Source: a virus
Taxonomy: Duplodnaviria > Heunggongvirae > Uroviricota > Caudoviricetes
Virus record (IMG/VR): IMGVR_UViG_3300033141_002732
Direction: 5' to 3' (one strand)
Length of the DNA stretch: 57,864 nt
The notes beneath the pieces were generated by a model that was not told the origin of the DNA, did no database searches, and saw nothing but the letters and a program-made list of their open reading frames with translations. Positions 830-45,260 of this stretch are shown piece by piece (position 1 is the first letter of the stretch; each line of letters opens with the position of its first letter). The position numbers and the translations under genes are program-made.

Positions 830-1870
830 TTGAATAAAAAAACTTTTTATTTATTTAGAACTAATTTGAGAAATTTAGAATATTATCATGAATACAATAA
901 TTTACAAGCATTTAAAAATAAATGTCATGATTTCTATTTATTACAATTAATATGGTTTTTAGAAAATAATTATATAGATAAAGCAGTTGTATGGAGATTA
1001 CAACCAAACAATAAGAAGATGGTTGATATTATATTTGATATTAATGGAAAGCAATTTATCCAAAAATTTGTAGATAATTTTTCTGAATGTTTTAAATATG
1101 AGAAACCATATATTACTTTTTGGAGAGGTGGTTTTAAAGAATATGATTATTTAACTAAATCTAATCCAAAATTTTTTGGGTCTCGTAGTTTATATCTGGG
1201 AGCAAGTAAAAGAATAACTCCTCAATTTGGTGGAATATATAGTAAGATCTTAGTTGAAAGTAATGATTTAATTAGAAATAATACTTTTCCATTTTTTAAA
1301 ACTGCTAATGAAAATATATTTTTTCCAATGAATATAGAAAAAGAATATGATATTTGTTGGCCAAATAATTTTACACAACTTAGATATAAAGGACAAGAAT
1401 TTTTTATTAAAGAAATTTCGAATTCTAAATATTTGAAAAGTTTATCAATAATACATACCGGAAATAAACCAGAAATTGGAAAAAGTTTATGTAAAAAATA
1501 TAATGTTAATAATATTCAATTTGTTGGTTGGTTAGATAGAAATGATTTAAATACAGTTCTTAATCAATCTAAAATTGGATTAGTTACTAGTAATTTAAAT
1601 GATGGTTGTCCTAGAATTAGTACAGAAATTATGATGTCTGGTACATTATTGCTTTTGAGAGAAAAAACGAGATTATTAAATTATTATAAAAAATATGGAG
1701 TTGTTATATTCAAAGATAATAATGTAGAATCTAAAATAAGAAATTCTTTAAAAAATTATTCTCTTTTTCATAAAGATATTATTGAAAAGAATGTTAATTT
1801 AAATTTAACAATGGAAAATGTTTGCAAAAAAAATTTTAGAATTTGGTTGAGGAATAAACACAACCCGTGA
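830..1870 (+). CDS. Putative GT-B (GT4-like) glycosyltransferase
   Basis: C-terminal FVGWLDRNDLNTVLNQSKIGL..DGCPRISTEIMMSG resembles the GT4 nucleotide-sugar-binding motif. Confidence 0.55.
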   Translation: MNKKTFYLFRTNLRNLEYYHEYNNLQAFKNKCHDFYLLQLIWFLENNYIDKAVVWRLQPNNKKMVDIIFDINGKQFIQKFVDNFSECFKYEKPYITFWRGGFKEYDYLTKSNPKFFGSRSLYLGASKRITPQFGGIYSKILVESNDLIRNNTFPFFKTANENIFFPMNIEKEYDICWPNNFTQLRYKGQEFFIKEISNSKYLKSLSIIHTGNKPEIGKSLCKKYNVNNIQFVGWLDRNDLNTVLNQSKIGLVTSNLNDGCPRISTEIMMSGTLLLLREKTRLLNYYKKYGVVIFKDNNVESKIRNSLKNYSLFHKDIIEKNVNLNLTMENVCKKNFRIWLRNKHNP

Positions 1871-1896
1871 ATGAATAATAGATAAGACACGGGTTG
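1861..1896. terminator. Hairpin between convergent genes (CAACCCGTG/CACGGGTTG)
   Basis: 9-bp perfect inverted repeat at 1861-1869 and 1888-1896. Confidence 0.55.
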
Positions 1897-1914
1897 TGTT
1901 TGTAATTTTTTCTC

Positions 1915-9826: not shown

Positions 9827-10189
9827 ATGTCAAAGATAATTGGTATTGTTGGAACAAGAAGTCGTGATTCTGAAGAAGACTTAAAAATAATTGAAAAGTT
9901 ATTTTTAGAACATTATAAGCCAGGTGATACTATATGTTCTGGTTTATGTCCAAAAGGTGCAGATAGATTTGCTGTAATTTTACAAAAAAAATATAAAACA
10001 AAAAAGAAATGGTTTCCTGCAAACTGGCAAAAATATGGAATAGCAGCTGGTTTTATAAGGAATACTAATATTGCAAAATTTTCTAATATTTTAATTGCTT
10101 GTGTTTCTAAAGATAGAAAAGGAGGAACAGAAGATACTATTAAAAAGTTTATGAAATTTCATGGAAAAGAGAGTCTAATAGTTTGTTAA
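9827..10189 (+). CDS. SLOG-family (DUF2493/YspA-like) protein
   Basis: IVGTRSR, SG.C.KGAD, FPANW.KYG.AAG..RN, GGT..TI motifs. Confidence 0.8.
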   Translation: MSKIIGIVGTRSRDSEEDLKIIEKLFLEHYKPGDTICSGLCPKGADRFAVILQKKYKTKKKWFPANWQKYGIAAGFIRNTNIAKFSNILIACVSKDRKGGTEDTIKKFMKFHGKESLIVC

Positions 10190-11307
10190 AAATAGCATCA
10201 GAATCTTTAGAAGTTAAAGAAGACACTTTAAATCATTTTAAATTGAAAGATCCATTTTCTCTCAATGAAGTTGAGGGATATATTTGTAGAAAATCTGATT
10301 ATAGATATGGTGCATTATTTATTTATAAAGTAAATGATTGGAAATGTAAACAAATTATATATACTACTCCAAAATTAGAATATCCATTTAATAGAAATGG
10401 AGATTTTCAATGGCCAGAAATTTATAAAATGGAAGCTTGGGAAAAATTAGATGGAACTAATATTCTTGCTTTTTGGTATAAATATAAAAATGAAAATTTC
10501 TTATCTTTTAAAACTAGAATGTCTCCTTTTCTACAAGATGGTAATTATGGAGGTTTTTTAAGTCTTTGGAAAGAATATTTTTCAAAGAATTTGTGGATTT
10601 CTGAAGTAATAATGGCAAATAAAGAATATAATCTTTCTTTTGAATTATTTGGTTCAAGAAATCCAATTACTGTAGAATATAAAATTCCTTTAGAAGTAAA
10701 TCTTCTTTTTGGAATTAGAAAACATGATCATGTAATCAAACCTCCATCAAAATTAAAAACATTTTATGAAACTAAATTACCATTTAAAATGAATATTAAT
10801 AACAAACTAGATTTAACTGAATTATATGAAAATTTAAGAAAATCAATGTCAGAAAAAAATAAAGATATATTTACTATTGAAGGTATGGTTTTGTATTCTC
10901 TTTCTAATGAAGAATCATGGAGACAATTTAAATGTAAACCTGAAGAAATTCAAAAGATTCATTGGTCTGCTGGTGGAATTCCTAAAAGGGAATTATGGAA
11001 TACAGCAATTAATTCTTTTGAAGAAGGAGAAAATTCTTTAGAACATTTTATAGATTTATTACGTGAAGAATATACAGATCAACAAATAGGAAGGTCTGAG
11101 CAGAAAATTAAAAAGATATTTTTAAAAGCAAATGAACATATTCAACTTGTATCACAAGTAAATAAAGTTTGGTTTTTGGCTAAAGAAAAAGGATTTGATA
11201 TTACTAAAAACAAAAATAATACTTTCAGATTTATTAGTCAATATTTTGACAAAAAAGAAATGAGAAGAGTAGGATCAATAATTTTAAAACAAGCAAATTT
11301 AATATAA
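10183..11307 (+). CDS. ATP-dependent RNA-ligase-like nucleotidyltransferase
   Basis: Motif I EKLDGTNI, motif III FELFG, motif IV EGMVL, motif V FKCK. Confidence 0.7.
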   Translation: MLKIASESLEVKEDTLNHFKLKDPFSLNEVEGYICRKSDYRYGALFIYKVNDWKCKQIIYTTPKLEYPFNRNGDFQWPEIYKMEAWEKLDGTNILAFWYKYKNENFLSFKTRMSPFLQDGNYGGFLSLWKEYFSKNLWISEVIMANKEYNLSFELFGSRNPITVEYKIPLEVNLLFGIRKHDHVIKPPSKLKTFYETKLPFKMNINNKLDLTELYENLRKSMSEKNKDIFTIEGMVLYSLSNEESWRQFKCKPEEIQKIHWSAGGIPKRELWNTAINSFEEGENSLEHFIDLLREEYTDQQIGRSEQKIKKIFLKANEHIQLVSQVNKVWFLAKEKGFDITKNKNNTFRFISQYFDKKEMRRVGSIILKQANLI

Positions 11308-11308
11308 A

Positions 11309-11698
11309 ATGATAAAAAAATGGAAAGATCTTATTATTGAAGTATTAGAGTTTGAAGGCGATTGTTTAAGTCTCGATTCTATTGCAAATAGAATTGTTGA
11401 TGAATATGGTAAATATGGTGTAATAAAAAATAATAAATTAAAGAAAAATATAAGAGATTGTATTAGAACTTCTTTAATTGGTTATATATGTTCTAATTCA
11501 ACTCATGGTCCTAAGATATTTTTTCAAAATAAAAACAAAACATATGGACTAGTTTGTTGGTTAAATTCAATAAATAATTTATTTAATCTAAGAGAAGGTG
11601 AAGAAATTTGTAAAAAATGTAATGGTTTGTTAGGGTGGTGTAATACTTGTTATGGAAAAGGAAGAGTTCTTTGGATCGATAATTTGATTGGAAAATAA
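11309..11698 (+). CDS. HARE-HTH-like winged helix fused to a C-terminal CxxC-(D/L)W(I)(E/D) zinc finger
   Basis: N-terminal WKDLIIEVL..LSLDSIANRI..TYGL; C-terminal CKKCNG..CNTCYGKG..WIDNLIG. Confidence 0.55.
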   Translation: MIKKWKDLIIEVLEFEGDCLSLDSIANRIVDEYGKYGVIKNNKLKKNIRDCIRTSLIGYICSNSTHGPKIFFQNKNKTYGLVCWLNSINNLFNLREGEEICKKCNGLLGWCNTCYGKGRVLWIDNLIGK

Positions 11699-11700
11699 AA

Positions 11701-11729
11701 AAAATGAGTTATTTATTACAACTCATTTT
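11701..11729. terminator. Bidirectional intrinsic terminator
   Basis: AAAATGAGTT/AACTCATTTT 10-bp stem with A/T tracts on both sides. Confidence 0.75.
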
Positions 11730-11736
11730 TTTTGTA

Positions 11737-12067
11737 CAAAAAAACCTCCAGACGAATCAGGCCTGCAGTCCCGAATCACTTGCAAGTTTTTTGACATTCC
11801 TCAACTGAATATACAACGAACTAAGTACAAGCGGCTAACTTTTCCACCGTATGTTCGCTGTTGTCAAGGAGACATGTCATGTCTGGAGGTTAAATGCTGA
11901 GTCTTCTAAAGTGCCACAACCCGACCTTAATTATATTAAGGGTGGACCAGGCAGTCCGACAACCCGAACACATTTTCTTCTGGGGTTAAAATTCAACCCG
12001 TGCCGTTAGCCGGAAAAAGAAATGATTATTTTTTACTATTCATTCCTTTGTGGTAGACAACCTCAGC
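11737..12067 (-). ncRNA. Unassigned structured ncRNA A (about 330 nt)
   Basis: G/C-enriched island downstream of a class A motif (12077-12092). 11-bp closing stem 11743-53/11881-91 followed by a U tract, nested stems with G-U pairs valid only on the - strand, three further hairpins and an 8-bp long-range pairing. Confidence 0.7.
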
Positions 12068-12076
12068 TTTTCTAAT

Positions 12077-12092
12077 TATTTATATATATAAG
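12077..12092 (-). promoter_or_regulatory. Class A promoter-like motif driving ncRNA A
   Basis: CTTATATATATAAATA on the - strand, about 10 nt upstream of the structured region. Confidence 0.6.
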
Positions 12093-12100
12093 ATTATTTT

Positions 12101-12538
12101 TTATATGTAAATAATTTGTAATAGTTTTCTTATTTTCATAATAATCTTTCCGAGATTATTTTCTCCTTTTCCATTACACATTCCCCAGAAAGTGTCACCA
12201 TGTTTATTTCCTTCTATTAATATTGCATTATTTGTATTTAAAAGTTTTATTCTTAAATTTCGATGACTTATATATTTAATCCAATTAATTATAAACATTA
12301 ATTCTTTATCATAATCAAACCAGTCATTTGGTTTAGAAGATGATTCTCTTTTCGCTTGCCATGGTTTTGGTAATGAAATAATGTAATTTCTATATTTTTC
12401 ATCATTCGATTTAAATGTATGATATGCATGTTCATTTGTTGTAAATATATATTTTCCAATTCTTATTTCAGCAAAATAAAAATTTGATAAGAAACTAAAT
12501 TCTCCAGTGAAACTATCTATAATTCTTTCCATTTTCAT
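12101..12538 (-). CDS. NADAR-family (YbiA-like) hydrolase
   Basis: FLSNFY, EHAY, LIEGN..GDTFWG, GENNLGKIIM motifs. Confidence 0.92.
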   Translation of the reverse strand: MKMERIIDSFTGEFSFLSNFYFAEIRIGKYIFTTNEHAYHTFKSNDEKYRNYIISLPKPWQAKRESSSKPNDWFDYDKELMFIINWIKYISHRNLRIKLLNTNNAILIEGNKHGDTFWGMCNGKGENNLGKIIMKIRKLLQIIYI

Positions 12539-12540
12539 TT

Positions 12541-13554
12541 TTAATGTCTTTCACTTCTTTTCTTTTCGCTTAAAGTTGTATATTCAAAATTTAAACATTT
12601 AGCCATTTTATGTGGATATTTTAAACTTGTTATTACAATACCTTCACGTAAATTTTCTGTTGTAAGTTCAGATGGTTGATCTGCTATTTCTCTTACTTGC
12701 TCAATTGATTCAAATTTTGTATAGTGGAATTTTACATGAGGTAAATCATAATTTTTGCATATTTCAACAAATTCAGAATTATGTAAATACTCACCATTTT
12801 TAGTAGCAGCAAATAATTTTATATCTGTTTCTTTTAATCCATATGAAAAATTCTTTTGAATTCCTAATCCAAAAATTTCGCCAAAGAAAACAATATCATA
12901 TGGAATTTTTGGAAGAATTTTTTCTTTTGCAATTTTCCAATAAATATTTTCTGCATTTCCTTTAAGAACTATATTATGAGATCCAACATATTCTTCTTTT
13001 TTATCTTCATGAGGATGTTGTAATATTCCAAATCTTGAATTGGTTCCATGTATTTTTTCAGACCAAATTATTTTTTCTCCTTTTTCAAATGTATATGGTT
13101 CATTTAATATATTTGGCATTTTATAAAATTTTATAAAATGAGGATTTACTGAAGATAAAGATAATGCTTCTCCTCGCATTTGAATTGTTGGTAGATCTTC
13201 CCATTTTAATATAAATGGAATATATGGTTTAACTTTTTCCATTGAAAGGATTAAACCTTCAGATCTATTTCCCCTTAATCTAGTAACTCTTACTTTACCT
13301 TTTGCTAAATATTTTGTAACTTCTACTTCTTCACTTAACTCAAAAGGGAGAACTGACTCGGGTGGAATAAATAAAACTTTGTCTCCAATTTTATGTAATC
13401 CTTTTTTTGAAATTGCACTCCAACCAATTTCTTGAAATAATATTTTTTCTAAAAAATCTGAATTTTCCGCTGGAGAAATTTCTTTAATAGTTACTTCTTT
13501 AATATATGGTGAAACTTCACAATGAGATATTTCTCGTTCATATGTTATTTTCAT
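12541..13554 (-). CDS. RNA ligase, DRB0094-like family
   Basis: N-terminal OB-like region (GDKVLFIPPES, LRGNRSEGL), EKIHGTN, FGEIFGLGIQK, REGIVI. Confidence 0.88.
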   Translation of the reverse strand: MKITYEREISHCEVSPYIKEVTIKEISPAENSDFLEKILFQEIGWSAISKKGLHKIGDKVLFIPPESVLPFELSEEVEVTKYLAKGKVRVTRLRGNRSEGLILSMEKVKPYIPFILKWEDLPTIQMRGEALSLSSVNPHFIKFYKMPNILNEPYTFEKGEKIIWSEKIHGTNSRFGILQHPHEDKKEEYVGSHNIVLKGNAENIYWKIAKEKILPKIPYDIVFFGEIFGLGIQKNFSYGLKETDIKLFAATKNGEYLHNSEFVEICKNYDLPHVKFHYTKFESIEQVREIADQPSELTTENLREGIVITSLKYPHKMAKCLNFEYTTLSEKKRSERH

Positions 13555-13563
13555 TATTTATCC

Positions 13564-13846
13564 TCAACCTTTTATAATTTTTTTTGTTGTTTTTCTAATA
13601 TGTTTTATTGTATATACACCACATGGACATTTATATCTATAATTTCGTTTTGTTTGTTCATTTGTTTTTGAATATTTTTTTAATAATTTTGGAAATATTT
13701 TTTGACAAATTTTACAATCCTGTCCAACACAAAATGGACAAAAACTTTTTTTTATTATCATTTGGCTTATTTAACCAATCTTGAATTCCATTTATATAAT
13801 TAGGATCTAATAAAATTCTTTTATAATTATTTTCTATTATTTTCAT
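13564..13846 (-). pseudogene. Cys-rich protein, paralog of 13870-14139, split by +1 A in an A8 run
   Basis: An ATG at 13846 with an AAGGA SD encodes INGIQDWLNKPNDNKK. Removing one A (13746-13753) joins it to SFCPFCVG, collinear with the paralog's ITGIQIWLKRLNKYKLRYCPF. Confidence 0.75.
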
Positions 13847-13869
13847 TTTTTATCATCCTTTCTAATTCA

Positions 13870-14139
13870 TTATATTTCTTCAATTTCTTTTATTATTTTT
13901 CTTGATTTTTTTATGATATATTTTAATGAATAAACTCCACATGGACAATCGTAATCATATTTCCTATTTGTTAGTTTTATTTTTGAATATCTTTCTTCTA
14001 AATTTGGAAATATTTCTTTGCATAAATCACATGATCGTCCAACGAGAAATGGACAATAACGAAGTTTATATTTATTTAATCTCTTTAACCATATTTGAAT
14101 ACCTGTTATTTCTGTTTGACTAAAGTTATATTTATTCAT
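13870..14139 (-). CDS. Cys-rich small protein (CPF..C..C...CPCG)
   Basis: ORF track; tandem paralog of the preceding gene. Confidence 0.65.
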   Translation of the reverse strand: MNKYNFSQTEITGIQIWLKRLNKYKLRYCPFLVGRSCDLCKEIFPNLEERYSKIKLTNRKYDYDCPCGVYSLKYIIKKSRKIIKEIEEI

Positions 14140-14155
14140 TATTTAAAACCTTTTT

Positions 14156-14437
14156 TTACGATAGTTCTTTTAATTTTTGTTTAAGATGTTTTATTTCATT
14201 TTGTTTTGTTTTTATTTTTTCTTTTAATTTATTTTTTAAGAATTTGTTTGCTTTATATCTAGTCTCAAAAATCCAACTCATTAGATATCGTTCTCTAGAA
14301 CCAAATATTGTTCTAATTACAAGTGTTGGTTCTTCATCAAAAGAAGATTGATTTTTTCTTTCTAATAGAACTCCTTCTTGTATTGTATCAGAATAATTAT
14401 CATAATAATATATTTTTTGTGCTTCTTTTAGATTCAT
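14156..14437 (-). CDS. Hypothetical protein
   Basis: ORF track; lies in the - strand operon. Confidence 0.55.
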   Translation of the reverse strand: MNLKEAQKIYYYDNYSDTIQEGVLLERKNQSSFDEEPTLVIRTIFGSRERYLMSWIFETRYKANKFLKNKLKEKIKTKQNEIKHLKQKLKELS

Positions 14438-14444
14438 TTATTTT

Positions 14445-15773
14445 CTATCCTTTTGTAGATTTTATATTTATAACTGGAATTATTTTATCTATAATTTTTG
14501 CAGTTGGTTTAATTGCTTCTTCTATAATTTTTGGATCTTTGTATGCATCTGGTGCTTCATCTAAAGTATTTTTACAAACAGAAGTTGTATATATTCCTTC
14601 CATTTGTTTTTTAAATTTTTCTAAAGATAATTTTTCTTTAGCTTTTCTTCTTGCAAGAACTCTACCTGCTCCATGAGGTGCTGAAAAATTCCAATCTGGA
14701 TTACTTCTTCCTTCACAAATTAAAATTCCATCTCTCATATTAAAAGGTATAACCATTCTAAATCCTTCAATACTTTTAATTGCACCTTTTCTTATTATTA
14801 AATCATTGAAATCTATATAATTATGAGTAGTTTCAATTATATCTTGAACTTGAATTGAGTCACTTAATATATCAAGGATTATATCAAACATTTGATTTAC
14901 ATTTTTTGATGCATAATGTTGTGCAAAAACCATATCTAAAAGATAATTACAAGCATCATTACCCTCTAAAGTTTCTAAACCAGATGATAAAGTTCCGTCA
15001 AATCCTAATTTCTTTTTTAACTCTTCAATCTTTTTTGGAATATTTTTTTTATCTTTAGTATTTGAAATGATATCTTGAATCTTATTTTGATAATCTTCTC
15101 CTCTTTTTATTTTTAAATTTTCTTTTGCTATATTCTGCCAATATCTACAAATTTTTTCTCCGAATTGTCTGGATCCAGAATGTATACTAATCCAATAATC
15201 TCCAGTATTTCGAGATTTACCTATTTCGATAAAATGGTTGCCTCCGCCTAATGTTCCTATAGAATTTATAGCTCTTTGTATATCCATATTTATTTCTTTA
15301 CATTTTCTTTCGAATTGTTGAAAATCAAATAATATTGGTTGTACATTAGTTCCAAATCTTTCATTATATTTTTTTGTTAAATTTTGTGTTGTGATAAAAG
15401 CTTTTTCCCATGGTAAATATTTTTTTAAATCATATACTGAATTTTTATGAACTGAAGTTCCAAAAGGAATATATTGTTTAATTTTCTTTTCAAGATTTTC
15501 TTTTGTTATATTAGAAAATAAATTTTTTCCAACATTTACAGATAATATTCTACAACCAATATCCACGCCTATTGTATTTGGAATTATTTTAGATGATACT
15601 TCCATTGTAAATCCAATAACACTACCTGTTCCTGCATGAGTATCTGGCATAATTCGAACTGGATTTGTAAATGCTGGATGATTGATAAATTGTATTATTT
15701 GTGAAGAACAACTTTTTTCTATTTCATTTACAAAAACTTTTGCTGTTGTATATTTTCCTTTATATTCAATCAT
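14445..15773 (-). CDS. rtcB: RtcB RNA ligase
   Basis: MPDTHAG, GVDIGC, GTLGGGNHFIE, HSGSR, HNY, RKGA, PHGAGR, DEAPDAYK motifs. Confidence 0.95.
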   Translation of the reverse strand: MIEYKGKYTTAKVFVNEIEKSCSSQIIQFINHPAFTNPVRIMPDTHAGTGSVIGFTMEVSSKIIPNTIGVDIGCRILSVNVGKNLFSNITKENLEKKIKQYIPFGTSVHKNSVYDLKKYLPWEKAFITTQNLTKKYNERFGTNVQPILFDFQQFERKCKEINMDIQRAINSIGTLGGGNHFIEIGKSRNTGDYWISIHSGSRQFGEKICRYWQNIAKENLKIKRGEDYQNKIQDIISNTKDKKNIPKKIEELKKKLGFDGTLSSGLETLEGNDACNYLLDMVFAQHYASKNVNQMFDIILDILSDSIQVQDIIETTHNYIDFNDLIIRKGAIKSIEGFRMVIPFNMRDGILICEGRSNPDWNFSAPHGAGRVLARRKAKEKLSLEKFKKQMEGIYTTSVCKNTLDEAPDAYKDPKIIEEAIKPTAKIIDKIIPVINIKSTKG

Positions 15774-15817
15774 TTTTTTTTGTACCTTTCTGTTAATTTT
15801 GGATGGAATATTGATAA

Positions 15818-15857
15818 AAAAAATAGAATGATATTTGGTAAAATCATTCTATTTTTT
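15818..15857. terminator. Intrinsic terminator-like hairpin downstream of ncRNA B
   Basis: 15-bp inverted repeat AAAAAATAGAATGAT/ATCATTCTATTTTTT. Confidence 0.7.
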
Positions 15858-15868
15858 ATTAATATATT

Positions 15869-16181
15869 AAGGATCCAAATAGCAGCCGGAAGTGTTGGTT
15901 GTGAAAGAGTTGTCACACACTTTTAATCCGGATTTTAAATCGCAGCATTCCAAGCTACTTTGACATAAGACATCATATCATGAGACATTAAGAATCCCTA
16001 TATTTTATCAGGTGGGATACCTGTAAATCATTAAAATGTTTAAACATAATGTCATGAATTGAAGTAATTTTGCTTTGGTTAAGCAAAATTTGTCTGTTTA
16101 TATTTAGCTCCATGCTAATTTCTAATATAACCCAATTAGAGAGGGACCCTATAACTCCGATATTTACACTACCGAATCCTT
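15869..16181 (-). ncRNA. Unassigned structured ncRNA B (about 313 nt) between the DIP1984-like gene and rtcB
   Basis: The ends pair (AAGGATTC-GGTAGT with GCTGCT-GGATCCTT, using G-U pairs). It has a 10-bp hairpin, nested stems and a pseudoknot candidate, a class B motif immediately upstream and a terminator downstream. Confidence 0.75.
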
Positions 16182-16189
16182 ATTTTAAG

Positions 16190-16204
16190 TTTATTATTTG
16201 TTCT
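16190..16204 (-). promoter_or_regulatory. Class B motif AGAACAAATAATAAA embedded in the last codons of the DIP1984-like gene
   Basis: Identical 15-mer to 29717-29731; ends 8 nt before ncRNA B. Confidence 0.6.
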
Positions 16205-16775
16205 GTAGTTCTTCTAAATATGGTTGTTTTTTCTTTTCTTTTTCAATAAAATCAAGAATTGGATGTTCTTCAATTAAATCTGTAATTGCATTTGTAGTTT
16301 GTAATCTTGGACTGAGAGAAGTATAAAAAATATCTAGTTTATTAATATTTCTTTGTTTTTCTTCTTCGTCAAAAAACCATATAACTTGTGGTCTTTTCTC
16401 CCCACTTGAAACTGGATAACGTTGTAATTTTTGTTCACCATGCTTTCTGTTAAGAGCATTACTTGCTTCTTTAATTGGATTTCCTGGGTATCTTTGTATT
16501 ATTAATATTTCTGTTAGAGATAAACGTTTTTCTCCAACGGAAATTATTGTTAAGAGATTTGTAAGTTCAATTCTTACTTTTAACCATATGTATCGTTCCA
16601 TAAGGTCCCCAACAGATTGGACCATACTTTTGACTTCTTTTCTCTGTTGTTTCTCATCTCCATATGGATATCTTTCATTGTCTAATGCAGAACTGTTGTC
16701 TTGAATTTGTTGTATTTTCCGTGTAATTCTTTTTCTTAAATTCTCATACTCATGTAGTGCATCAACTAATTTCAT
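16194..16775 (-). CDS. DIP1984-like coiled-coil protein
   Basis: MKLVDAL...LRKRI, LKVRIELTN, LSLTEIL and the C-terminal LQTTNA pattern resemble the DIP1984 family. Confidence 0.6.
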   Translation of the reverse strand: MKLVDALHEYENLRKRITRKIQQIQDNSSALDNERYPYGDEKQQRKEVKSMVQSVGDLMERYIWLKVRIELTNLLTIISVGEKRLSLTEILIIQRYPGNPIKEASNALNRKHGEQKLQRYPVSSGEKRPQVIWFFDEEEKQRNINKLDIFYTSLSPRLQTTNAITDLIEEHPILDFIEKEKKKQPYLEELQNK

Positions 16776-16817
16776 AATTTAATTCTCCTTAAAAATTAAA
16801 GATTTAAAAAATAAAAA

Positions 16818-16884
16818 AAGAAATAGTGAAATACAGCAATTTCGTAGTCAGGGACATCTCTAGTTTTGTATCTCACTATTTCTT
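16818..16884 (-). promoter_or_regulatory. Long leader hairpin with U tract (attenuator or small RNA) upstream of the DIP1984-like gene
   Basis: 17-bp stem with one G-U valid only on the - strand, a 33-nt loop and a U-rich run before the AAGGAG SD. Confidence 0.55.
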
Positions 16885-17066
16885 GGTTATGTAATAAATA
16901 CAGTGGATAGAGCTAATGGTAATACACAACGAAATTACAAACTAAAGATTATTAAATACATAAATTTATATATATAAGTTATTTTTTTTAACCAGAAATA
17001 ATTTTGAGAAATTATATTTTTTTATATGAACAAAATAACAAATATAGAAATATTGTGGAGTAATTT

Positions 17067-17435
17067 ATGAAAAGAAATATTTTTCATATGATAAGTGAAA
17101 ATAGATATGACGCAGTTTTTTATATTCTTGAAAAAGAACAAATAAAGTTAATTGCATCTGAAATTATTTGTTGGGCTTTATCTAATACTGAAACTGATGA
17201 TGAAAATGATATAAGTGAAATAATTGGAATGATTAATAATGGACTTGATTTAGATTGTGCAGATGAATTTGAAAATTTTATTGGTTATAAGAAAGTTGAT
17301 GAAAATATAGATGAGTTTATGGAAGTAGCAGAACAAATGGTAGAAATGGATAAGAAAGAAAAAGAAAGTTTAGATTCGAAAAAAGAGTTTAAAATAATTG
17401 ATATAGGAGATATTAGAATTGCAAGAAAAGACTAA
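17067..17435 (+). CDS. Acidic hypothetical protein
   Basis: ORF track; GGAG SD. Confidence 0.55.
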   Translation: MKRNIFHMISENRYDAVFYILEKEQIKLIASEIICWALSNTETDDENDISEIIGMINNGLDLDCADEFENFIGYKKVDENIDEFMEVAEQMVEMDKKEKESLDSKKEFKIIDIGDIRIARKD

Positions 17436-17910
17436 GAAAAGTATAATTATTTCACCACATCCAGATGATGAAATTATTGGTTGTTTCGACATTTTACAAA
17501 ATAATGAATGTATTATTATATATTCTCATAAAATAGATAAGAAAAGAAGAGAAGAATCATTACAATTAAAAAAACACATGTCATCAAATGTTATAATGCA
17601 ATTCTATCTAAATAATATCCCACCTTATTTGTTAATTGAAGAAAATACATTTTATTTTCCCGATCCAATTTTTGAGAATCATCCTGATCATAGATATTGG
17701 GGTGCAATGGGAGAAAAATTATTACGAGAAAATAAATTAGATATTGTATTTTATAGTGTAAATATGAATGCTCCATATATTTATGAATCTTCTAATTCTG
17801 AAAAGAAAAAACTTCTTTTAGATACTGTATATGAAAGTCAAAAAGATTTATGGAAATATGATCATAAATATTTTTTATTTGAAGGTTATTGTAAGTGGTT
17901 AATAAAATAA
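17419..17910 (+). CDS. PIG-L/LmbE-family deacetylase
   Basis: ISPHPDDEIIGC and HPDH motifs. Confidence 0.8.
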   Translation: MQEKTKKSIIISPHPDDEIIGCFDILQNNECIIIYSHKIDKKRREESLQLKKHMSSNVIMQFYLNNIPPYLLIEENTFYFPDPIFENHPDHRYWGAMGEKLLRENKLDIVFYSVNMNAPYIYESSNSEKKKLLLDTVYESQKDLWKYDHKYFLFEGYCKWLIK

Positions 17911-20629: not shown

Positions 20630-20756
20630 TTTTCCTCCTTATTTTTTATAAAAGATATTTAACAATTATTTATATATATAATTATTTTCTTAATAAAATA
20701 TTTAGAAATATTTTTTTATTGGAAGAACAAAAAATTAAAAAGGAGTAGTTAAAGAC

Positions 20757-34586: not shown

Positions 34587-35408
34587 ATGTCTAAGAAAGT
34601 TTCATATTTAAGTATGTTAAAAGAAGCTATTCAGGAATTTGATACGACAAAAACAGTTGACGTAAAAGGTCCTATGCTTGATCCAATTTTGTCTTATAGT
34701 GGAGATGGGGAACTTCCAACTCAGAAAGATGCTGCTAGTATTCTAGAAAGATATTACTTCAATGAAAAAGATGATTCTAATGTTGAAGTTTCTGATGATG
34801 AGGAAGAAAATGTTACTGAAAATAAAGATCCTATTGATAATCCAATAGATGAAGTTCCAGATGAAAATATTCCTAAAACTAAAGATGAAATTGAAGATGC
34901 TGTTACAGAAGCTGAAGAGAAAAATGAGGATGAAGAGAAACCTGAAGAAGATGAAGTAGAGGAATCTGAAAAGATTTCTGAAGCTGAAGAAAGTTTAGAT
35001 GAAATGGAAAATGCTATTATTGAAAAATTGATTTCTGAAATGGAAGGGGAAAAAGATGAGGAAGAGGAAAAAGATGAGAAACCTGAGGAAGAGGTAGAAG
35101 AAAATAATAGATTTGAAGGTGATAGAGGAGAAGGAACTGAAGCAGCTGGAACTGGTTCTGATGATAATCTAATACCTGATAGGGATCAAGAAGGTTCTGA
35201 TTTAGCTTCTGGAAAAGAGTTAAAAGAGCAAGATGAAGAATTAGATGTTGATGAAGAATTAAAAGATGAAGAGGAAGTAGAAGAAAATGTTAAAGAACAA
35301 AAAGATGAAGATACAGGAGCTCCTCGTCCTTTAGAGAAAGTTGGAAAAGGAGATGTAGAAGAAGCTTTTAAAATCTTTAAAGAGCAAATTGAACAAGATT
35401 CTGAATAA
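34587..35408 (+). CDS. Highly acidic protein, probable prohead core or scaffold component
   Basis: Very E/D-rich; opens the head operon after a class B motif. Confidence 0.45.
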   Translation: MSKKVSYLSMLKEAIQEFDTTKTVDVKGPMLDPILSYSGDGELPTQKDAASILERYYFNEKDDSNVEVSDDEEENVTENKDPIDNPIDEVPDENIPKTKDEIEDAVTEAEEKNEDEEKPEEDEVEESEKISEAEESLDEMENAIIEKLISEMEGEKDEEEEKDEKPEEEVEENNRFEGDRGEGTEAAGTGSDDNLIPDRDQEGSDLASGKELKEQDEELDVDEELKDEEEVEENVKEQKDEDTGAPRPLEKVGKGDVEEAFKIFKEQIEQDSE

Positions 35409-36738: not shown

Positions 36739-39700
36739 ATGCCATTGAAAGACGCATTTTCTAAATTAAAAGATACTATCGTTGGAACTACTACAACTAA
36801 AATAGATGTAACTCTTGATAAAGCAGTTCGTGATATTATATCGTATAAATCTAATACTAGTAGAAATGGTTATATAGATTTAGTTAAAAATTTAATATCT
36901 AAAACTAGTGATATTAATATTGGTGGTGGTTTATTTAATCAAAATATAAGTCCTTCTGTATTTGGTCAAGGAAATAGACTTCAAAGATATAAAATGTATT
37001 CTACAATTGTAGAAAATATTCCATATGCTATCAGGGCACTTTCTGTATTAACTGATAATATTTTATCTCCAGATGATATTACAAAAGTATCTTTAGAAGT
37101 AGCACCATTTTCGTATTTAGAAGATCAAAATACAGCAAATTCTCAAGTAACTAGAGTAAAAAAAATAATTAAAGATTTGGAATTAGAAAAGAAATTACAT
37201 TTAATAATTAAAAATACATTAGAAAATGGAGACTTCTTTTGTGAAATTGCAGATGCCAAAACTGTTTTAACAAGTAGGTCTATTCTTTCTGAGGGTAATA
37301 ATGTTATTAATAATTATGATATTAAAACAGATATTACAAATCCTGATTTTAACGAAAAATTTGAATTTAAGAATGAAAATAACAATTATTCATTGATAAT
37401 AAATTATGAATCTTTTTCTGATAAAGAAGATAATAAACCAAAAGAAAAAACAAATAAGAAAAAAGATCAAAAGAAAGATGATATTGATTTAAAAGATGTA
37501 AAATTAGTTTTTCATGAACCAAATAGGGTCATAAAATTACAGAGTAGTATTTTTCCACTATGTTTTGGTTATTTAATTTTTCCATATACTACAGTAGTTC
37601 CTCAAATTACATTGCAAGATCAGATGGTGAATAATATTTGTATTTCTATTTTAAATAGTCTTGAGAAAAGAATACCTCAAATGAAAGAATTTTCTAATTC
37701 TCAAGATTTAAAAGATATTATTAAAGATATGATTGCTCGTGCTGATCCATCAAGAGCAATGAATATTAGATATGTTCCACCAGATAAGATAATTCATTTT
37801 TTGGTTCCATCAACAAAATATTATCCTTATGGGGAATCAATATTTGATGCTTCAAAATATACAGCTAAAGTTTTAATTGCTTTAGAAACAGCTTTAGCGA
37901 TTCAAAGATTATCTAGATCAACTGAAAAGAGAAAAATTGGAATTGAAATTGGTTTACCAAGAGATGCTAAAAAAGCAGTAGAAAAAATGAAGGAAGCTTT
38001 TAAGAAAAGAAAAATTAGTCTTGATAGTTTTGGAACTATTGATACAATTCCTTCACAAATAACTACTTTTGAAGATATCTATGTTCCACAAAAAGATGGA
38101 AAAGCTTTTGTTGATATTGATACAATGACAGGTGGTAATGTCGATGTAAGAAGTAAAGTAGATGAATTAAAACTGTTAAGAGATCAGTTGGTTGCGTGTT
38201 GGGGTGTTCCTCCCAGTTTTATTGGTATTGAGGAAAATCTTTGTTTAAAATCAAATACTTATATACCACTAATTAATGGTGATACTTTACAATTAAGTGA
38301 AATTATTAGACAATATGAAAATGGTGTACATGATATGTATGTATATAGTTACAATCAAAAAATGGGAAAGATTGTTCCGGGGCTAGTTGAATGGGCTGGT
38401 TATACAAGAAAACAAACTAAATTAGTAAGAGTTCATTTAGATAATGGAAAATATATTGATTGTACTCCAGATCATCCATTTTATCTTAGAAATGGAATAA
38501 CAGAAGTTGAAGCACAGAATTTAAAAGAAGGTGATTCATTATTACCATTATATAGAAAGAATACAAATTCTTCTATGTCGTCTGGAATTACTTATGAAAT
38601 GGTATATCATCCAGGAATTTCTAAAAGAAATTGGGAATTAACTTATAAAATGGTTGGATATAATTTTAAGATGAAATCAGGAAAGGGATATGTTATTCAT
38701 CATAAAGATTATAATCCTAGAAATAATCATCCAGAAAATTTAGAATCAATTACTAATATTCAACATCATAAAATTCATAGTTTGGATAAAGTTCGTCATA
38801 CTCCTGGAGGAACTTTATTTATTAAAGATAATTGTATTATTTGTGGAAAACCTTTTAAAAGAGCTCATCATATAAATCAAATTACTTGTTCTAAGAAATG
38901 TAGAAAGGAAAGAGCACGTCTTGATGGATTAAAATCATGGAATAGAGGAGCAGAAAAGAAAAAAGAGAATAGTAGAAAAGAATTTATTTGTCCAATTTGT
39001 GGTGACATATTTAAAAGACCAAAATGTTATTATAAACAGCTTAAAGATATAAATAATATGACATGTGGAAAACAAAGTTGTCAATCTAAAGTTATGTCAA
39101 AAATACATTCTAAAAGATATAAAGATAATTGGACAACTACAACATGTACAATTTGTAATGAAGAATTTAGTCGTACAAAAACTTATAAAGATCAAACAAT
39201 TTATCCTTGTTGTAAAAAAGAAGAATGCAAGAATAAAATTTGGTTTATAAGAAATAAAGAAAATAAACGAGTTTCTAAATTAAATCATAAAGTTGTAAAA
39301 GTTGAATGGTTGGATGGATTTCATGATACAGGTGATTTAACAATTAAAGATTATCATAATTTTGCTTTAGATTCTGGAGTTATTGTTCATAATTCAAATA
39401 AATCTGCTTTAAGTGAAGAAAATATTTTGTTTGCTAGAACGATTGTTAATCACCAAAAATATTTTACATATCAAATAAATGAACTTATAGAAAAGGTTGT
39501 AAATTATTGTGATCCAGAACAATCATTAACATTATTCGATGATATTAATGTTTCTCTTTTACCACCACAATCTTTACAGTTTGAAAGAGAGTCAAGATAT
39601 ATAAATGATATTGTTAATATAATAGAAGCACTTGAAAGAATTGGTGTTCCGAAAGAATATTCAAAGAAACATTATTTAAAACAAATAGATTGGAAAGAAG

Positions 39701-39810
39701 TAGATAAATATAAAATTGATGGAGATATTGATAAGAATCTTGGAGTCAATACAGATGAAGAAGAAGGTATGGGTGGAATTGGAGGAATGGGTGGAGTTGG
39801 AACTTTCTAA
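36739..39810 (+). CDS. T4 gp20-like portal protein with an intein
   Basis: YGESIFD, ALAIQRLSRSTEKR, EDIYVPQKDG, L..CWGVP and EENILFARTI regions. Confidence 0.85.
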   Translation: MPLKDAFSKLKDTIVGTTTTKIDVTLDKAVRDIISYKSNTSRNGYIDLVKNLISKTSDINIGGGLFNQNISPSVFGQGNRLQRYKMYSTIVENIPYAIRALSVLTDNILSPDDITKVSLEVAPFSYLEDQNTANSQVTRVKKIIKDLELEKKLHLIIKNTLENGDFFCEIADAKTVLTSRSILSEGNNVINNYDIKTDITNPDFNEKFEFKNENNNYSLIINYESFSDKEDNKPKEKTNKKKDQKKDDIDLKDVKLVFHEPNRVIKLQSSIFPLCFGYLIFPYTTVVPQITLQDQMVNNICISILNSLEKRIPQMKEFSNSQDLKDIIKDMIARADPSRAMNIRYVPPDKIIHFLVPSTKYYPYGESIFDASKYTAKVLIALETALAIQRLSRSTEKRKIGIEIGLPRDAKKAVEKMKEAFKKRKISLDSFGTIDTIPSQITTFEDIYVPQKDGKAFVDIDTMTGGNVDVRSKVDELKLLRDQLVACWGVPPSFIGIEENLCLKSNTYIPLINGDTLQLSEIIRQYENGVHDMYVYSYNQKMGKIVPGLVEWAGYTRKQTKLVRVHLDNGKYIDCTPDHPFYLRNGITEVEAQNLKEGDSLLPLYRKNTNSSMSSGITYEMVYHPGISKRNWELTYKMVGYNFKMKSGKGYVIHHKDYNPRNNHPENLESITNIQHHKIHSLDKVRHTPGGTLFIKDNCIICGKPFKRAHHINQITCSKKCRKERARLDGLKSWNRGAEKKKENSRKEFICPICGDIFKRPKCYYKQLKDINNMTCGKQSCQSKVMSKIHSKRYKDNWTTTTCTICNEEFSRTKTYKDQTIYPCCKKEECKNKIWFIRNKENKRVSKLNHKVVKVEWLDGFHDTGDLTIKDYHNFALDSGVIVHNSNKSALSEENILFARTIVNHQKYFTYQINELIEKVVNYCDPEQSLTLFDDINVSLLPPQSLQFERESRYINDIVNIIEALERIGVPKEYSKKHYLKQIDWKEVDKYKIDGDIDKNLGVNTDEEEGMGGIGGMGGVGTF
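38242..39393 (+). mobile_element. Intein containing an HNH endonuclease and several CxxC fingers
   Basis: L|CLKSNT ... VIVHN|S junctions, CTPDHPF block B, HHKDYNPRNNHPENL HNH motif. Confidence 0.9.
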
Positions 39811-43589: not shown

Positions 43590-43732
43590 GATCTAATCTA
43601 ATTTTTAAATAGTTCATTTCTTCTATAATTTCCTTCTTGGTACAATTCTATTTTATAATTTAATCAGAACAAATACTAAATTTCTATAGTTTATACAATG
43701 TTAAAATTATTTTACTATATGGAGGAAATAAA

Positions 43733-45193: not shown

Positions 45194-45224
45194 TTAGGTT
45201 AATTATTTAACTTTACAATTTTTC

Positions 45225-45260
45225 TTCCCTGTTTTCTTTTTAAGAAGACAGGGAATTTTT
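45225..45260 (+). terminator. Intrinsic terminator after the major capsid gene
   Basis: TTCCCTGT/ACAGGGAA stem followed by T5. Confidence 0.8.

What the first reader, a model, noticed from the sequence alone, without database searches (positions are those of the whole stretch)
9827..16990. Candidate new system: an RNA-repair island pairing three ligases and a DIP1984-like protein with two dedicated large ncRNAs
Seen: within about 7 kb lie SLOG, an RNA-ligase-like nucleotidyltransferase, ncRNA A, NADAR, a DRB0094-type ligase, RtcB, ncRNA B and a DIP1984-like gene with a structured leader. Each ncRNA has its own phage promoter motif and a terminator. Established: RtcB joins 2',3'-cyclic-P or 3'-P ends to 5'-OH, ATP-dependent ligases join 3'-OH to 5'-P, phages use RNA ligases to counter anticodon nucleases, and some bacterial RtcB loci carry ncRNA partners (Ro60/Y RNA). 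No Ro60/TROVE gene is visible here. Inference: DIP1984-like protein, ncRNA B and RtcB may form an uncharacterised RNP, or the ncRNAs may act as decoy or substrate RNAs in a repair or anti-defence module.
Basis: partly seen in the sequence, partly recalled or inferred. Interest (0 to 1): 0.92.

Follow-up and report, generated by a model that had tools for sequence, protein, structure and literature searches.

The report
Phage protein-RNA pair beside repair genes
In the RNA-repair region of an uncultured T4-like phage, one flagged "ncRNA" is the conserved folded-RNA partner of a small gene of unknown function (DIP1984-like), a pair found in many viruses inside tRNA gene arrays and in no RNA catalogue; the other RNA looks real but has no detectable relative, and the repair enzymes are ordinary neighbours, not part of one machine.

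Summary
NADAR, a DRB0094/Rnl5-type RNA ligase and RtcB are clear. A 374-aa protein carries ligase motifs, and the 193-aa protein has the DIP1984 fold (3KDQ). The SLOG call is weak. Both GC-rich, ORF-free stretches fold far better on the minus strand, and neither matches Rfam.

ncRNA B (15869-16181, minus) starts 12 nt after the DIP1984-like stop codon and has no promoter motif of its own. It belongs to a conserved RNA family lying next to DIP1984-like genes: at least 62 of 75 viral loci, and 19 of 19 MAG loci with flanking sequence. A closing helix, a 3' domain and an H-type pseudoknot are supported by covariation. Two blocks of triplets spaced 7-8 nt flank the pseudoknot. Here every triplet reads AUG; all 19 relatives read AAG.

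RtcB is not a conserved neighbour (0 of 77 loci). Co-oriented tRNA genes are (50 of 77, against 6 of 234 controls).

ncRNA A (about 11741-12068, minus) has its own promoter motif and terminator, but no homolog turned up anywhere.

So the island is a juxtaposition of modules, not one system. This scan noted the DIP1984-RNA pair before on other DNA; I found no paper or Rfam family for it.

The parts
9827..10189 (+). 120-aa SLOG-like (DprA-type Rossmann) protein; weak assignment
   Evidence: PF02481 E 0.0088, below cut-off; phrog_289 E 5e-12
10183..11307 (+). 374-aa divergent RNA-ligase-like nucleotidyltransferase
   Evidence: Motifs KLDG, FELFG, EGMVL, KCKP by eye. 189 homologs at 45-63% identity, 3 with PF09414. 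Adjacent to an Rnl5 homolog and a CCA-adding enzyme in L353. The single-sequence AF2 model is poor.
11309..11698 (+). 129-aa CxxC zinc-finger protein, convergent with ncRNA A; no family hit
   Evidence: ORF list; no Pfam, PHROG or NCBIfam hit
11703..11727 (.). Bidirectional terminator hairpin, flanked by an A run and a T run
   Evidence: Sequence; folded
11741..12068 (-). ncRNA A, an orphan two-domain RNA. Domain 1 runs 11896-12067 with three CGGGUUG motifs at 12000, 11966 and 11923. Domain 2 runs 11745-11889 and is closed by CCUCCAGAC/GUCUGGAGG. A possible 8-bp inter-domain pairing joins 12005-12012 with 11832-11839.
   Evidence: GC 0.42-0.45 against 0.23. z -6.1 minus against -3.2 plus. Domains fold at z -3.6 and -4.95. 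No Rfam hit at E<=10. No homolog.
12078..12091 (-). Phage promoter-like motif TTATATATATAAAT in front of ncRNA A
   Evidence: Exact copies at 12078, 16964 and 20668 (all minus). A 1-mismatch copy at 5911 (plus) lies 25 nt before tRNA-Trp. 45 matches against 18.6 expected.
12101..12538 (-). NADAR domain protein
   Evidence: PF08719 E 1.5e-19; phrog_1017 E 1e-30
12541..13554 (-). Rnl5 / DRB0094-type ATP-dependent RNA ligase (N-terminal OB domain plus nucleotidyltransferase)
   Evidence: PF09414 E 3e-16; PF21189 E 3e-4; TIGR02306 E 6e-25; motif I SEKIHGTN
13629..13642 (-). Promoter-like motif (1 mismatch) in the 312-nt gap upstream of the ligase gene
14445..15773 (-). RtcB 3'-phosphate/5'-OH RNA ligase
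   Evidence: PF01139 E 8e-57, positions 1-425 of 426; phrog_1075 E 1e-117
15816..15853 (-). Intrinsic terminator (11-bp hairpin plus U8) ending the DIP1984-like/ncRNA B unit
   Evidence: Sequence and fold
15869..16181 (-). ncRNA B, a member of the DIP1984-associated RNA family. Closing helix P1 pairs 16168-16181 with 15869-15883. Triplet-repeat blocks lie at 16024-16059 and 15958-15994. The H-type pseudoknot spans 15994-16023. The 3' domain spans 15884-15936.
   Evidence: nhmmer E 4e-17 and weaker to regions 3' of homologous genes. Covariation: 90.5% paired against 73.5% shuffled, 21 of 29 pairs with double changes. Pseudoknot kept in 18 of 20. 7 AUG against 0 AAG in the repeats.
16194..16775 (-). 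193-aa DIP1984-like helical protein
   Evidence: 243 representative relatives. 19 of 76 hit PF20935. AF2 pLDDT 94.9. Foldseek finds 3KDQ at E 6e-4, prob 1.0, the only significant PDB hit.
16818..16884 (-). Leader hairpin (18 bp) followed by a U run; terminator-like attenuator between the promoter and the DIP1984-like start codon
   Evidence: Fold z -3.6; not conserved by sequence in relatives
16964..16977 (-). Promoter-like motif TTATATATATAAAT for the leader/DIP1984-like/ncRNA B unit
   Evidence: A similar motif stands upstream of the homologous gene in L139, L144 and L147.

Best explanation
The 7 kb holds three separate modules in the tRNA and RNA-maintenance part of a very AT-rich T4-like phage.

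(1) Ordinary phage RNA-repair enzymes: RtcB, an Rnl5/DRB0094-type ligase, a divergent 374-aa ligase-like enzyme, NADAR, and a weak SLOG-like protein.

(2) One transcription unit made of promoter, attenuator hairpin, DIP1984-like gene, a 313-nt structured RNA (ncRNA B) and terminator. Shown: the RNA belongs to a conserved family that sits directly beside DIP1984-like genes on the same strand. It has a covariation-supported closing helix, an H-type pseudoknot and a 3' domain, plus two blocks of triplets spaced 7-8 nt. The cassette usually lies inside co-oriented tRNA arrays. Inferred: the RNA is cut out of the transcript like its tRNA neighbours, and several copies of the helical DIP1984-like protein bind the triplet repeats to form a stable RNP. 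This would resemble Ro60 with Y RNA, or TRAP on its GAG repeats. The concerted AAG-to-AUG change of all repeats in this phage, together with substitutions at otherwise conserved protein positions (E5D, K8H, Y27N, E159Q), fits one reader of all repeats that has co-changed. The cellular target is unknown; a role in tRNA or translation maintenance or in counter-defence is my guess.

(3) ncRNA A is an independent, roughly 330-nt, two-domain RNA gene with its own promoter motif and terminator. It has no detectable relatives and no known function.
For: - Homology of ncRNA B to regions 3' of DIP1984-like genes: nhmmer E 4e-17 to 1e-8 from a single sequence. All 21 closest viral loci carry it. Iterated profiles link a second cluster, giving at least 62 of 75 loci. 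An independent GTDB genome scan gives 19 of 19 loci with flanking sequence.
- Covariation: 29 pairs, 90.5% paired against 73.5% in shuffles and 36-45% in slid controls; 21 pairs with double changes; score 0.507 against 0.204, with 0 of 500 shuffles reaching it. RNAalifold finds 18 of 29 pairs compensatory. The pseudoknot covaries: ATCCC/GGGAT, GCCGC/GCGGT, TCTCC/GGAGA, GAAGG/CCTTC.
- Repeats: 7 AUG and 0 AAG here, against 5-7 AAG and 0-2 AUG in each of 19 relatives. Protein substitutions at positions that are 93-96% conserved.
- Protein fold: 3KDQ is the only significant PDB hit.
- Context: tRNA within 3 kb in 50 of 77 loci against 6 of 234 controls. All are co-oriented, and the next tRNA starts 9-20 nt after the RNA in 4 lineages.
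- RtcB is absent from 77 of 77 loci.
- ncRNA A: composition, strand-specific fold, promoter motif, terminator.
- Ligase pairing in L353.
Against: - No expression data: no sequencing run was listed for this DNA, so transcript ends and processing are inferred.
- Protein-RNA binding is inferred only from adjacency and the concerted repeat change. The AAG-to-AUG switch is a single lineage event, and the protein substitutions may be unrelated drift in the most divergent family member (mean identity 31%).
- In 5 MAG loci the RNA lies upstream of the gene, not downstream, so the picture of a 3'-UTR-derived RNA is not universal.
- ncRNA A has no homolog, so its status rests on one sequence.
- RtcB follows directly after the ncRNA B terminator with no recognisable promoter motif, so read-through co-expression in this phage cannot be excluded.
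Confidence: 0.6

Rival explanations
1. One reading: the DIP1984-like protein, ncRNA B and RtcB (with the ligases and ncRNA A) form one integrated RNA-repair or anti-defence RNP system, on the pattern of Ro60-Y RNA-RtcB operons.
For: All lie on one strand within 5 kb. RtcB starts 40 nt after the ncRNA B terminator without a recognisable promoter motif. The cassette's conserved neighbours are tRNAs, the usual substrates of RtcB and Rnl repair. One family member gives a sub-threshold YrlA hit of 34.5 bits.
Against: None of 77 viral DIP1984-like loci has RtcB within 3 kb; 1 has Rnl5-like and 2 have SLOG-like genes. A strong terminator separates ncRNA B from rtcB. The Rnl5 and 374-aa ligase pair occurs elsewhere without either RNA. 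RtcB loci at 35-50% identity lack both RNAs.
Confidence: 0.1
2. ncRNA B is not a trans-acting RNP RNA. It is a cis element of the DIP1984-like mRNA: a structured UTR that stabilises the transcript or serves as an autoregulatory operator bound by the protein.
For: It starts 12 nt after the stop codon and has no promoter motif of its own. Adjacency is almost invariant. It can lie upstream or downstream of the gene, as a cis operator could.
Against: About 300 nt, a pseudoknot, an end-to-end closing helix and 7 or more repeats are far more than known autoregulatory operators need. The closing helix of 5' and 3' ends and tRNAs starting 9-20 nt after it are typical of excised stable RNAs. GC enrichment is comparable to structural RNAs.
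Confidence: 0.2
3. ncRNA A is not a functional RNA gene. It is a lineage-specific relic (a decayed tmRNA, tRNA cluster or mobile-element remnant) or a DNA-level element.
For: No homolog was found in any search. Related phages carry tmRNA and tRNA genes just downstream of rtcB (L001), so a decayed stable-RNA gene at this position is conceivable.
Against: An exact copy of the phage promoter motif and a terminator frame it. The strong fold on one strand only (z -6.1 against -3.2) implies G-U pairs, that is, selection at the RNA level. Both domains fold significantly on their own. There is no tmRNA or tRNA signal even at E<=10. GC stays at 45% in a 25% GC genome, which decay would erode.
Confidence: 0.2

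Closest known systems
Ro60 (Rsr) with Y RNA / YrlA, including the rsr-yrlBA-rtcBA operon and phage Ro60-Y RNA pairs
   Same: A small protein gene paired with a dedicated structured RNA whose 5' and 3' ends form a closing helix. Found in phages among tRNA genes and near RNA-repair ligases. One family member gives a sub-threshold YrlA match.
   Different: No TROVE/vWA protein is present. The partner is a helical DIP1984-fold protein. No Y RNA or YrlA match at E<=10 in this window. The RNA carries a pseudoknot and triplet repeats, not a tRNA-like module. RtcB linkage is not conserved.
DIP1984 / DUF6847 (PF20935, NF038048; crystal structure 3KDQ, Corynebacterium diphtheriae, function unknown)
   Same: Same fold: Foldseek prob 1.0, E 6e-4, 170 aligned columns. 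There is a family-level sequence link: 19 of 76 relatives hit PF20935.
   Different: The window protein itself scores below both curated cut-offs. It has a C-terminal extension of about 25 aa and deviates at several conserved positions. Searches of the held papers for DUF6847, PF20935 and DIP1984 found no paper describing an RNA partner.
TRAP (trp RNA-binding attenuation protein) on GAG/UAG triplet repeats; CsrA/RsmE on GGA-repeat RNAs
   Same: RNA with many evenly spaced identical triplets, which in those systems are each read by one subunit of a protein oligomer. This is the model proposed here for the AAG/AUG repeats.
   Different: No sequence or fold relation. Here the repeats sit inside a large folded RNA with a pseudoknot. 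Binding is untested.
Large ornate phage-associated RNAs (ROOL RF03087, GOLLD RF01998) and phage tmRNA
   Same: Large GC-rich structured RNAs in phages near tRNA genes and rtcB. A related phage (L001) has tmRNA just downstream of rtcB.
   Different: Neither ncRNA A nor ncRNA B matches any of these models. Both are about 320 nt, shorter than ROOL or GOLLD. ARAGORN finds no tmRNA.
Phage RNA-repair gene sets (RtcB, Rnl1/Rnl2-type ligases, NADAR, SLOG, Macro) described by Iyer, Burroughs, Aravind and co-workers (PMC7824862, PMC9503650)
   Same: The protein part of the island fits these descriptions: several non-redundant ligases plus ADP-ribose-processing domains in large phages.
   Different: In the passages I searched (terms RtcB, RNA ligase, SLOG, NADAR, tmRNA) those surveys mention no ncRNA partners. 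The 374-aa ligase-like family is mostly invisible to Pfam.

Membership tests
DIP1984 / DUF6847 protein family | Sequence match to PF20935 or NF038048 above the curated cut-off | tested here: not met
   PF20935 E 0.0076 (16.7 bits, cut-off 27). NF038048 E 2.9e-4 (21 bits, cut-off 70). However, 19 of 76 close relatives hit PF20935 at E<1e-3, best 5e-8.
DIP1984 / DUF6847 protein family | Fold of 3KDQ | tested here: met
   AF2 model pLDDT 94.9. Foldseek PDB ranks 1-2 are 3kdq_A and 3kdq_C, E 6e-4, prob 1.00, TM 0.42-0.50. The next hit has E 0.57.
DIP1984-associated structured RNA (uncatalogued; defined here from 20 aligned members) | Lies directly beside a DIP1984-like gene on the same strand | tested here: met
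   ncRNA B starts 12 nt after the stop codon. The same holds in at least 62 of 75 viral loci and 19 of 19 MAG loci.
DIP1984-associated structured RNA (uncatalogued; defined here from 20 aligned members) | End-to-end closing helix with conserved 5' UUCGGUAGYGUAAA and 3' CCGGCUGCUAUUUGG, plus the 3' domain helices | tested here: met
   The window row pairs at 27 of 29 tested pairs.
DIP1984-associated structured RNA (uncatalogued; defined here from 20 aligned members) | H-type pseudoknot: the hairpin loop pairs about 10 nt downstream across an RRUAAAUA spacer | tested here: met
   Window: CAGGU-AUCCC-ACCUG, spacer AUAAAAUAU, then GGGAU. Kept with different sequences in 18 of 20 members.
DIP1984-associated structured RNA (uncatalogued; defined here from 20 aligned members) | Two blocks of A-N-G triplets spaced 7-8 nt, flanking the pseudoknot | tested here: met
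   The blocks are present in the aligned columns, but the triplet is AUG (7 of 7) where the family has AAG. This is a variant, not a loss.
Ro60-Y RNA system | TROVE-domain Ro60/Rsr protein | tested here: not met
   No TROVE hit among the 8 largest other ORFs of the window or the 18 ORFs scanned around the locus.
Ro60-Y RNA system | RNA matching Y RNA or YrlA covariance models | tested here: not met
   No such hit at E<=10 in 11650-12150 or 15760-17070.
RtcB RNA ligase | Full-length PF01139 domain | tested here: met
   E 8.2e-57, profile positions 1-425 of 426. Catalytic residues were not checked individually.
Rnl5 / DRB0094-type RNA ligase | N-terminal OB domain followed by a nucleotidyltransferase with a KxHG/KxDG lysine motif | tested here: met
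   PF21189 at residues 23-103, PF09414 at 161-313, motif SEKIHGTN. TIGR02306 gives 87.8 bits, below the equivalog cut-off of 151.
ATP-dependent RNA ligase (374-aa protein) | Covalent nucleotidyltransferase motifs I, III, IV, V and a family HMM match | tested here: inconclusive
   Motifs seen by eye. The protein itself has no Pfam, PHROG or NCBIfam hit. PF09414 is precomputed on 3 of 120 homologs. The AF2 single-sequence model was unusable.
NADAR | PF08719 domain above cut-off | tested here: met
   71.2 bits against a cut-off of 35.1.
SLOG superfamily | Match to a SLOG-clade model | tested here: inconclusive
   Only a DprA-type hit at E 0.0088 (15.7 bits, cut-off 29.6), plus phrog_289.
tmRNA / known large ncRNAs (ROOL, GOLLD, OLE, HEARO, raiA) for ncRNA A and ncRNA B | Match to the Rfam model or ARAGORN tmRNA detection | tested here: not met

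The most novel reading that the evidence does not exclude
The DIP1984-like protein assembles as an oligomer on the evenly spaced triplets of its neighbouring RNA. The result is a previously undescribed RNP class that travels with viral tRNA arrays. This phage carries a natural specificity switch: all repeats changed from AAG to AUG, with matched changes at conserved protein positions. That switch would pinpoint the recognition code. In this phage the RNP would work alongside RtcB and two ATP-dependent ligases as a tRNA-maintenance or counter-defence toolkit. ncRNA A would be the first member of yet another RNA class.
Probability: 0.3. Interest if true: 0.9.

Novelty: categorically new. Interest (0 to 1): 0.72.

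Why it matters
DIP1984/DUF6847 is a structure-solved protein family with no known function. A roughly 300-nt RNA with a covarying helix set, a pseudoknot and triplet repeats almost always sits beside the gene. It does so in viral contigs and in contigs binned into MAGs of many bacterial and archaeal groups (which may themselves be viral), typically inside tRNA arrays. This gives the family a concrete, testable job as one half of an RNP.

The window adds two things. First, a natural AAG-to-AUG repeat switch that suggests how the RNA is read and offers a ready-made specificity-swap experiment. Second, the cassette is juxtaposed with three RNA ligases, which hints at, but does not prove, a link to tRNA repair.

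The result also corrects the idea that RtcB is part of the unit. The orphan ncRNA A is a further lead, but it rests on one sequence.

Tried and rejected
- **Rfam.** Gathering thresholds over the whole window, E<=10 over both RNAs and the leader, and E<=0.01 over 9 loci carrying family members plus the phage T5 locus. Only tRNAs, tmRNA in L001 and one sub-threshold YrlA hit in L163.
- **Close relatives of the phage.** Megablast and distant blastn against 50,697 phage records found nothing. Sibling JGI contigs are 99.4-100% identical and give no variation. The DIP1984-like protein has no relative in the word-indexed 5.8-billion-protein search.
- **ncRNA A homolog hunts, all negative.** blastn and nhmmer against up to 2.7 Mb of fetched loci. 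Whole records of 10 related viral contigs. Covariance model R1 of domain 2 over 488 kb and 98 kb. A three-anchor pattern in metagenome contigs gave 0 hits, not even the window's own contigs, so that collection lacks these samples.
- **Second-cluster HMM.** The profile of the second DIP-RNA cluster does not hit the window.
- **ncRNA A as tmRNA.** Rejected.
- **GC-rich islands elsewhere.** The terminator palindrome near 1860-1900 and the island at 2404-2573 were checked as possible relatives of ncRNA A. The first is a terminator; the second is a 72-aa membrane-protein ORF.
- **Anchor searches.** Single-protein search for related loci for the DIP1984-like protein and the Rnl5 ligase found nothing.
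- **Phage T5.** The protein profile A1 hits T5.085 (E 1e-5), which is followed by a 363-nt gap with the same elements by eye: CGGUAG...GCUGUU closing helix, pseudoknot with a UAAAUA spacer, and AAG units with 7-nt period. The nhmmer profiles do not reach it, so homology is a lead, not a result.
- **Cultured phages.** tblastn with the window protein and with a central family member found none.
- **Expression data.** No run was listed for the window.
- **AF2 of the 374-aa protein.** Without an alignment it was unusable, pLDDT 42.

Full report
**Setting.** The window comes from an uncultured, very AT-rich (25% GC) T4-like phage. It encodes Gp23 capsid, a T4-type portal and a DnaB-type helicase. 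The same DNA occurs in three sibling JGI samples at 99.4-100% identity, so no natural variation of this phage is available. No whole genome is held for it and no sequencing run was listed.

**Check of the genes.**
- NADAR (12101-12538, minus) is clear.
- The ligase at 12541-13554 (minus) has an N-terminal OB domain and is DRB0094/Rnl5-type. It carries motif I SEKIHGTN.
- RtcB (14445-15773, minus) is clear.
- The 374-aa protein (10183-11307, plus) has no family hit of its own. It does show KLDG, FELFG, EGMVL and KCKP motifs. It belongs to a large metagenomic family at 45-63% identity, a few of whose members carry PF09414.
- In another phage (L353), homologs of this protein (61% identity) and of the Rnl5 ligase (59%) lie side by side next to a CCA-adding enzyme and an RlaP nucleotidyltransferase. 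So "three ligases" is reasonable, and the two ATP-dependent ones appear to be a recurrent pair.
- The SLOG call rests on weak hits only.
- The 193-aa protein scores below the DIP1984/DUF6847 cut-offs. An exhaustive HMMER search found 243 representative relatives, and 19 of 76 of them hit PF20935. An AlphaFold model built on their alignment (pLDDT 94.9) has 3KDQ, the DIP1984 crystal structure, as its only significant PDB match. "DIP1984-like" is therefore right at the fold level.

**Check of the RNAs.** In the flagged region only two ORF-free gaps are GC-enriched apart from the tRNA-bearing one: 11699-12100 and 15849-16193.
- Both fold much better on the minus strand. ncRNA A gives z -6.1 against -3.2; ncRNA B gives -4.8 against -1.6.
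- Neither matches any Rfam 15 family, even at E<=10.
- A phage promoter-like motif, TTATATATATAAAT, occurs exactly at 12078-12091, 16964-16977 and 20668-20681, all on the minus strand. A one-mismatch copy lies 25 nt before tRNA-Trp.
- ncRNA A therefore has its own promoter motif and ends at a bidirectional terminator (11703-11727).
- ncRNA B has no such motif. It begins 12 nt after the DIP1984-like stop codon and ends at a strong terminator (15816-15853).
- The unit is thus promoter (16964-16977), an 18-bp leader hairpin with a U run (z -3.6), the gene, the RNA, then the terminator.

**What ncRNA B is.** I took 77 viral contigs that encode a relative of the 193-aa protein and compared the 450 nt after each gene.
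- ncRNA B alone matches the full length of that region in the closest relatives (nhmmer E 4e-17 to 1e-8).
- A profile finds the RNA after all 21 of the closest genes.
- A profile seeded from the more distant loci converges on 48 sequences and reaches back to the first group. Together, at least 62 of 75 loci with enough flanking DNA carry the RNA.
- An independent scan of GTDB genome contigs gave 21 loci in contigs binned into MAGs labelled as many bacterial and archaeal groups; these contigs may themselves be viral. All 19 with flanking sequence have the RNA next to the gene on the same strand: 14 downstream and 5 directly upstream.

On a 20-sequence alignment the RNA shows these features:
- a 14-bp closing helix of the 5' and 3' ends;
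- a 3' domain of three helices;
- a central hairpin.

Across these, 90.5% of cells are paired, against 73.5% in shuffles and 36-45% when partners are slid. 21 of 29 pairs change on both sides, and the covariation score is 0.507 against 0.204, with 0 of 500 shuffles reaching it (RNAalifold). The loop of the central hairpin pairs with a segment about 10 nt downstream, across a conserved RRUAAAUA spacer, in 18 of 20 sequences. The sequences covary (ATCCC/GGGAT, GCCGC/GCGGT, TCTCC/GGAGA, GAAGG/CCTTC), so this is an H-type pseudoknot.

Flanking the pseudoknot are two blocks of triplets spaced 7-8 nt. Every one of 19 relatives has 5-7 AAG and at most 2 AUG. The window has 7 AUG and no AAG. The window's protein is also the most divergent member. 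It differs at positions that are 93-96% conserved in the family: E5D, K8H, Y27N and E159Q.

**Context of the cassette.** RtcB is within 3 kb of none of the 77 viral loci. An Rnl5-like gene occurs once and a SLOG-like gene twice. tRNA genes are the conserved neighbours:
- 50 of 77 loci hold at least one, a density of 2.9 per 10 kb;
- in loci fetched by unrelated chance patterns, 6 of 234 hold one, a density of 0.06 per 10 kb;
- all the tRNAs are co-oriented with the cassette;
- in four lineages the next tRNA begins 9-20 nt after the RNA's 3' end.

This suggests co-transcription and excision with the tRNAs. I infer that; it is not shown.

**How it most likely works.**
- Shown: a conserved gene-RNA cassette, the RNA's architecture, and its tRNA-array context.
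- Inferred: the RNA is released as a stable molecule, and several copies of the helical protein bind the repeated triplets, forming an RNP. The concerted change of all repeats in one lineage is what one expects if a single reader recognises them all. It is one event, however, and could be coincidence.
- The target of such an RNP is unknown. Its company (tRNAs everywhere; here also three RNA ligases and NADAR) makes a role in tRNA or translation maintenance or in counter-defence the best guess.

**ncRNA A.** It is about 330 nt and has two independently closed domains (z -3.6 and -4.95). Three CGGGUUG motifs lie within 80 nt, where about 0.01 are expected at local composition. An 8-bp complementarity between the domains is possible. 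No homolog was found by any route:
- BLAST and nhmmer against 2.7 Mb of fetched loci;
- whole records of ten related viral contigs;
- a covariance model of domain 2 over 586 kb, including loci of a phage whose ligases are 59-61% identical;
- cultured phages;
- a metagenome pattern scan.

I rate it as probably a real RNA gene. The grounds are the promoter motif, the terminator, the strand-specific fold, and GC kept at 45% in a 25% GC genome. It is not a conserved partner of the repair enzymes.

**Verdict on the "island".** It is a juxtaposition:
- a known kind of phage RNA-repair gene set (PMC7824862, PMC9503650);
- a DIP1984-like gene with its partner RNA;
- an orphan RNA.

The minus strand appears to hold four units: leader/DIP1984-like/ncRNA B; RtcB with two small ORFs; Rnl5-NADAR behind a one-mismatch promoter motif at 13629-13642; and ncRNA A.

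**Comparison with the known.** The cassette works most like Ro60 with Y RNA, and by the repeat logic like TRAP or CsrA with their repeat RNAs. It is a member of none of these: no TROVE protein, no Y RNA match, no fold relation.
- Full-text searches for DUF6847 or PF20935 returned no paper using those terms. The only DIP1984 hit is an unrelated Acinetobacter genomics paper by its title.
- Rfam 15 has no model for the RNA.
- Earlier notes of this scan describe the same gene-plus-RNA pairing on other DNA, including phage T5, giant viruses and bacteria. Those notes gave me the lead, and I tested it independently here.
- For T5, the protein profile hits T5.085 (E 1e-5). The 363-nt gap behind it shows the same elements by eye, but my sequence profiles do not reach it. 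T5 therefore remains a lead.
- Fold matches in BFVD point to uncharacterised proteins of cultured Aeromonas, Cronobacter, Acinetobacter and Bacillus phages.

**Scores.** The DIP1984-RNA pair is real and well supported, and I found no published description of it. The AAG-to-AUG switch is a new and useful detail. The integrated-system claim and the RtcB RNP are not supported, and ncRNA A is unconfirmed by comparison. Interest is 0.72.

Noticed in passing
L001:7426-8154 (IMGVR_UViG_3300033149_002200); also G009 34841-35193: Related AT-rich phages encode a tmRNA. In L001 (Rfam 127.7 bits) it follows tRNA-Gly and tRNA-Met directly downstream of an RtcB gene 50% identical to the window's. The window itself has no tmRNA.
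   Followed up: partly
L372, L374, L376, L379, L380: In five MAG loci the DIP1984-associated RNA lies directly upstream of the gene instead of downstream, on the same strand. Either the order is flexible or an upstream gene copy was missed.
   Followed up: no
L144:3861-4600: Right after the DIP1984-associated RNA, and before a tRNA array, lie about 750 nt more of GC-rich, ORF-free sequence. It has no Rfam match and no relative among the fetched loci. These may be further uncatalogued RNAs.
   Followed up: partly
L353:5279-11122 (ENA k141_4194): A second phage carries RlaP, a CCA-adding enzyme (PolyA_pol+HD), an Rnl5-type ligase and the 374-aa ligase-like gene in a row. This suggests the two ATP-dependent ligases form a conserved repair pair.
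   Followed up: partly
window 36739-39810 (+): The T4-type portal (gp20) gene is interrupted by an intein with an HNH endonuclease domain.
   Followed up: no
window 41904-49096 (+): Three large paralogs with DUF7487 (561, 557 and 698 aa) flank the Gp23 major capsid gene.
   Followed up: no
window 17419-17910 (+); L139, L147, L148, L172: The 163-aa protein divergently transcribed from the DIP1984-like unit (weak PIG-L hit) is also the neighbour of the cassette in three related contigs (50-55% identity) and, at 35% identity, in L172.
   Followed up: no
G001 (contig of L001) 47242-49671: A stretch of about 2.5 kb without long ORFs holds six GC-rich islands beside the 23-tRNA array. These are candidates for further ncRNA genes.
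   Followed up: no
window 1860-1900: The only other CGGGTTG copies in the window form a perfect 12-bp palindromic terminator hairpin after the 346-aa gene. It is unrelated to ncRNA A.
   Followed up: yes
L163:3609-3674: Inside one DIP1984-associated RNA there is a sub-threshold match to the YrlA (Y RNA-like) model: 34.5 bits, gathering score 69, E 9e-4.
   Followed up: no
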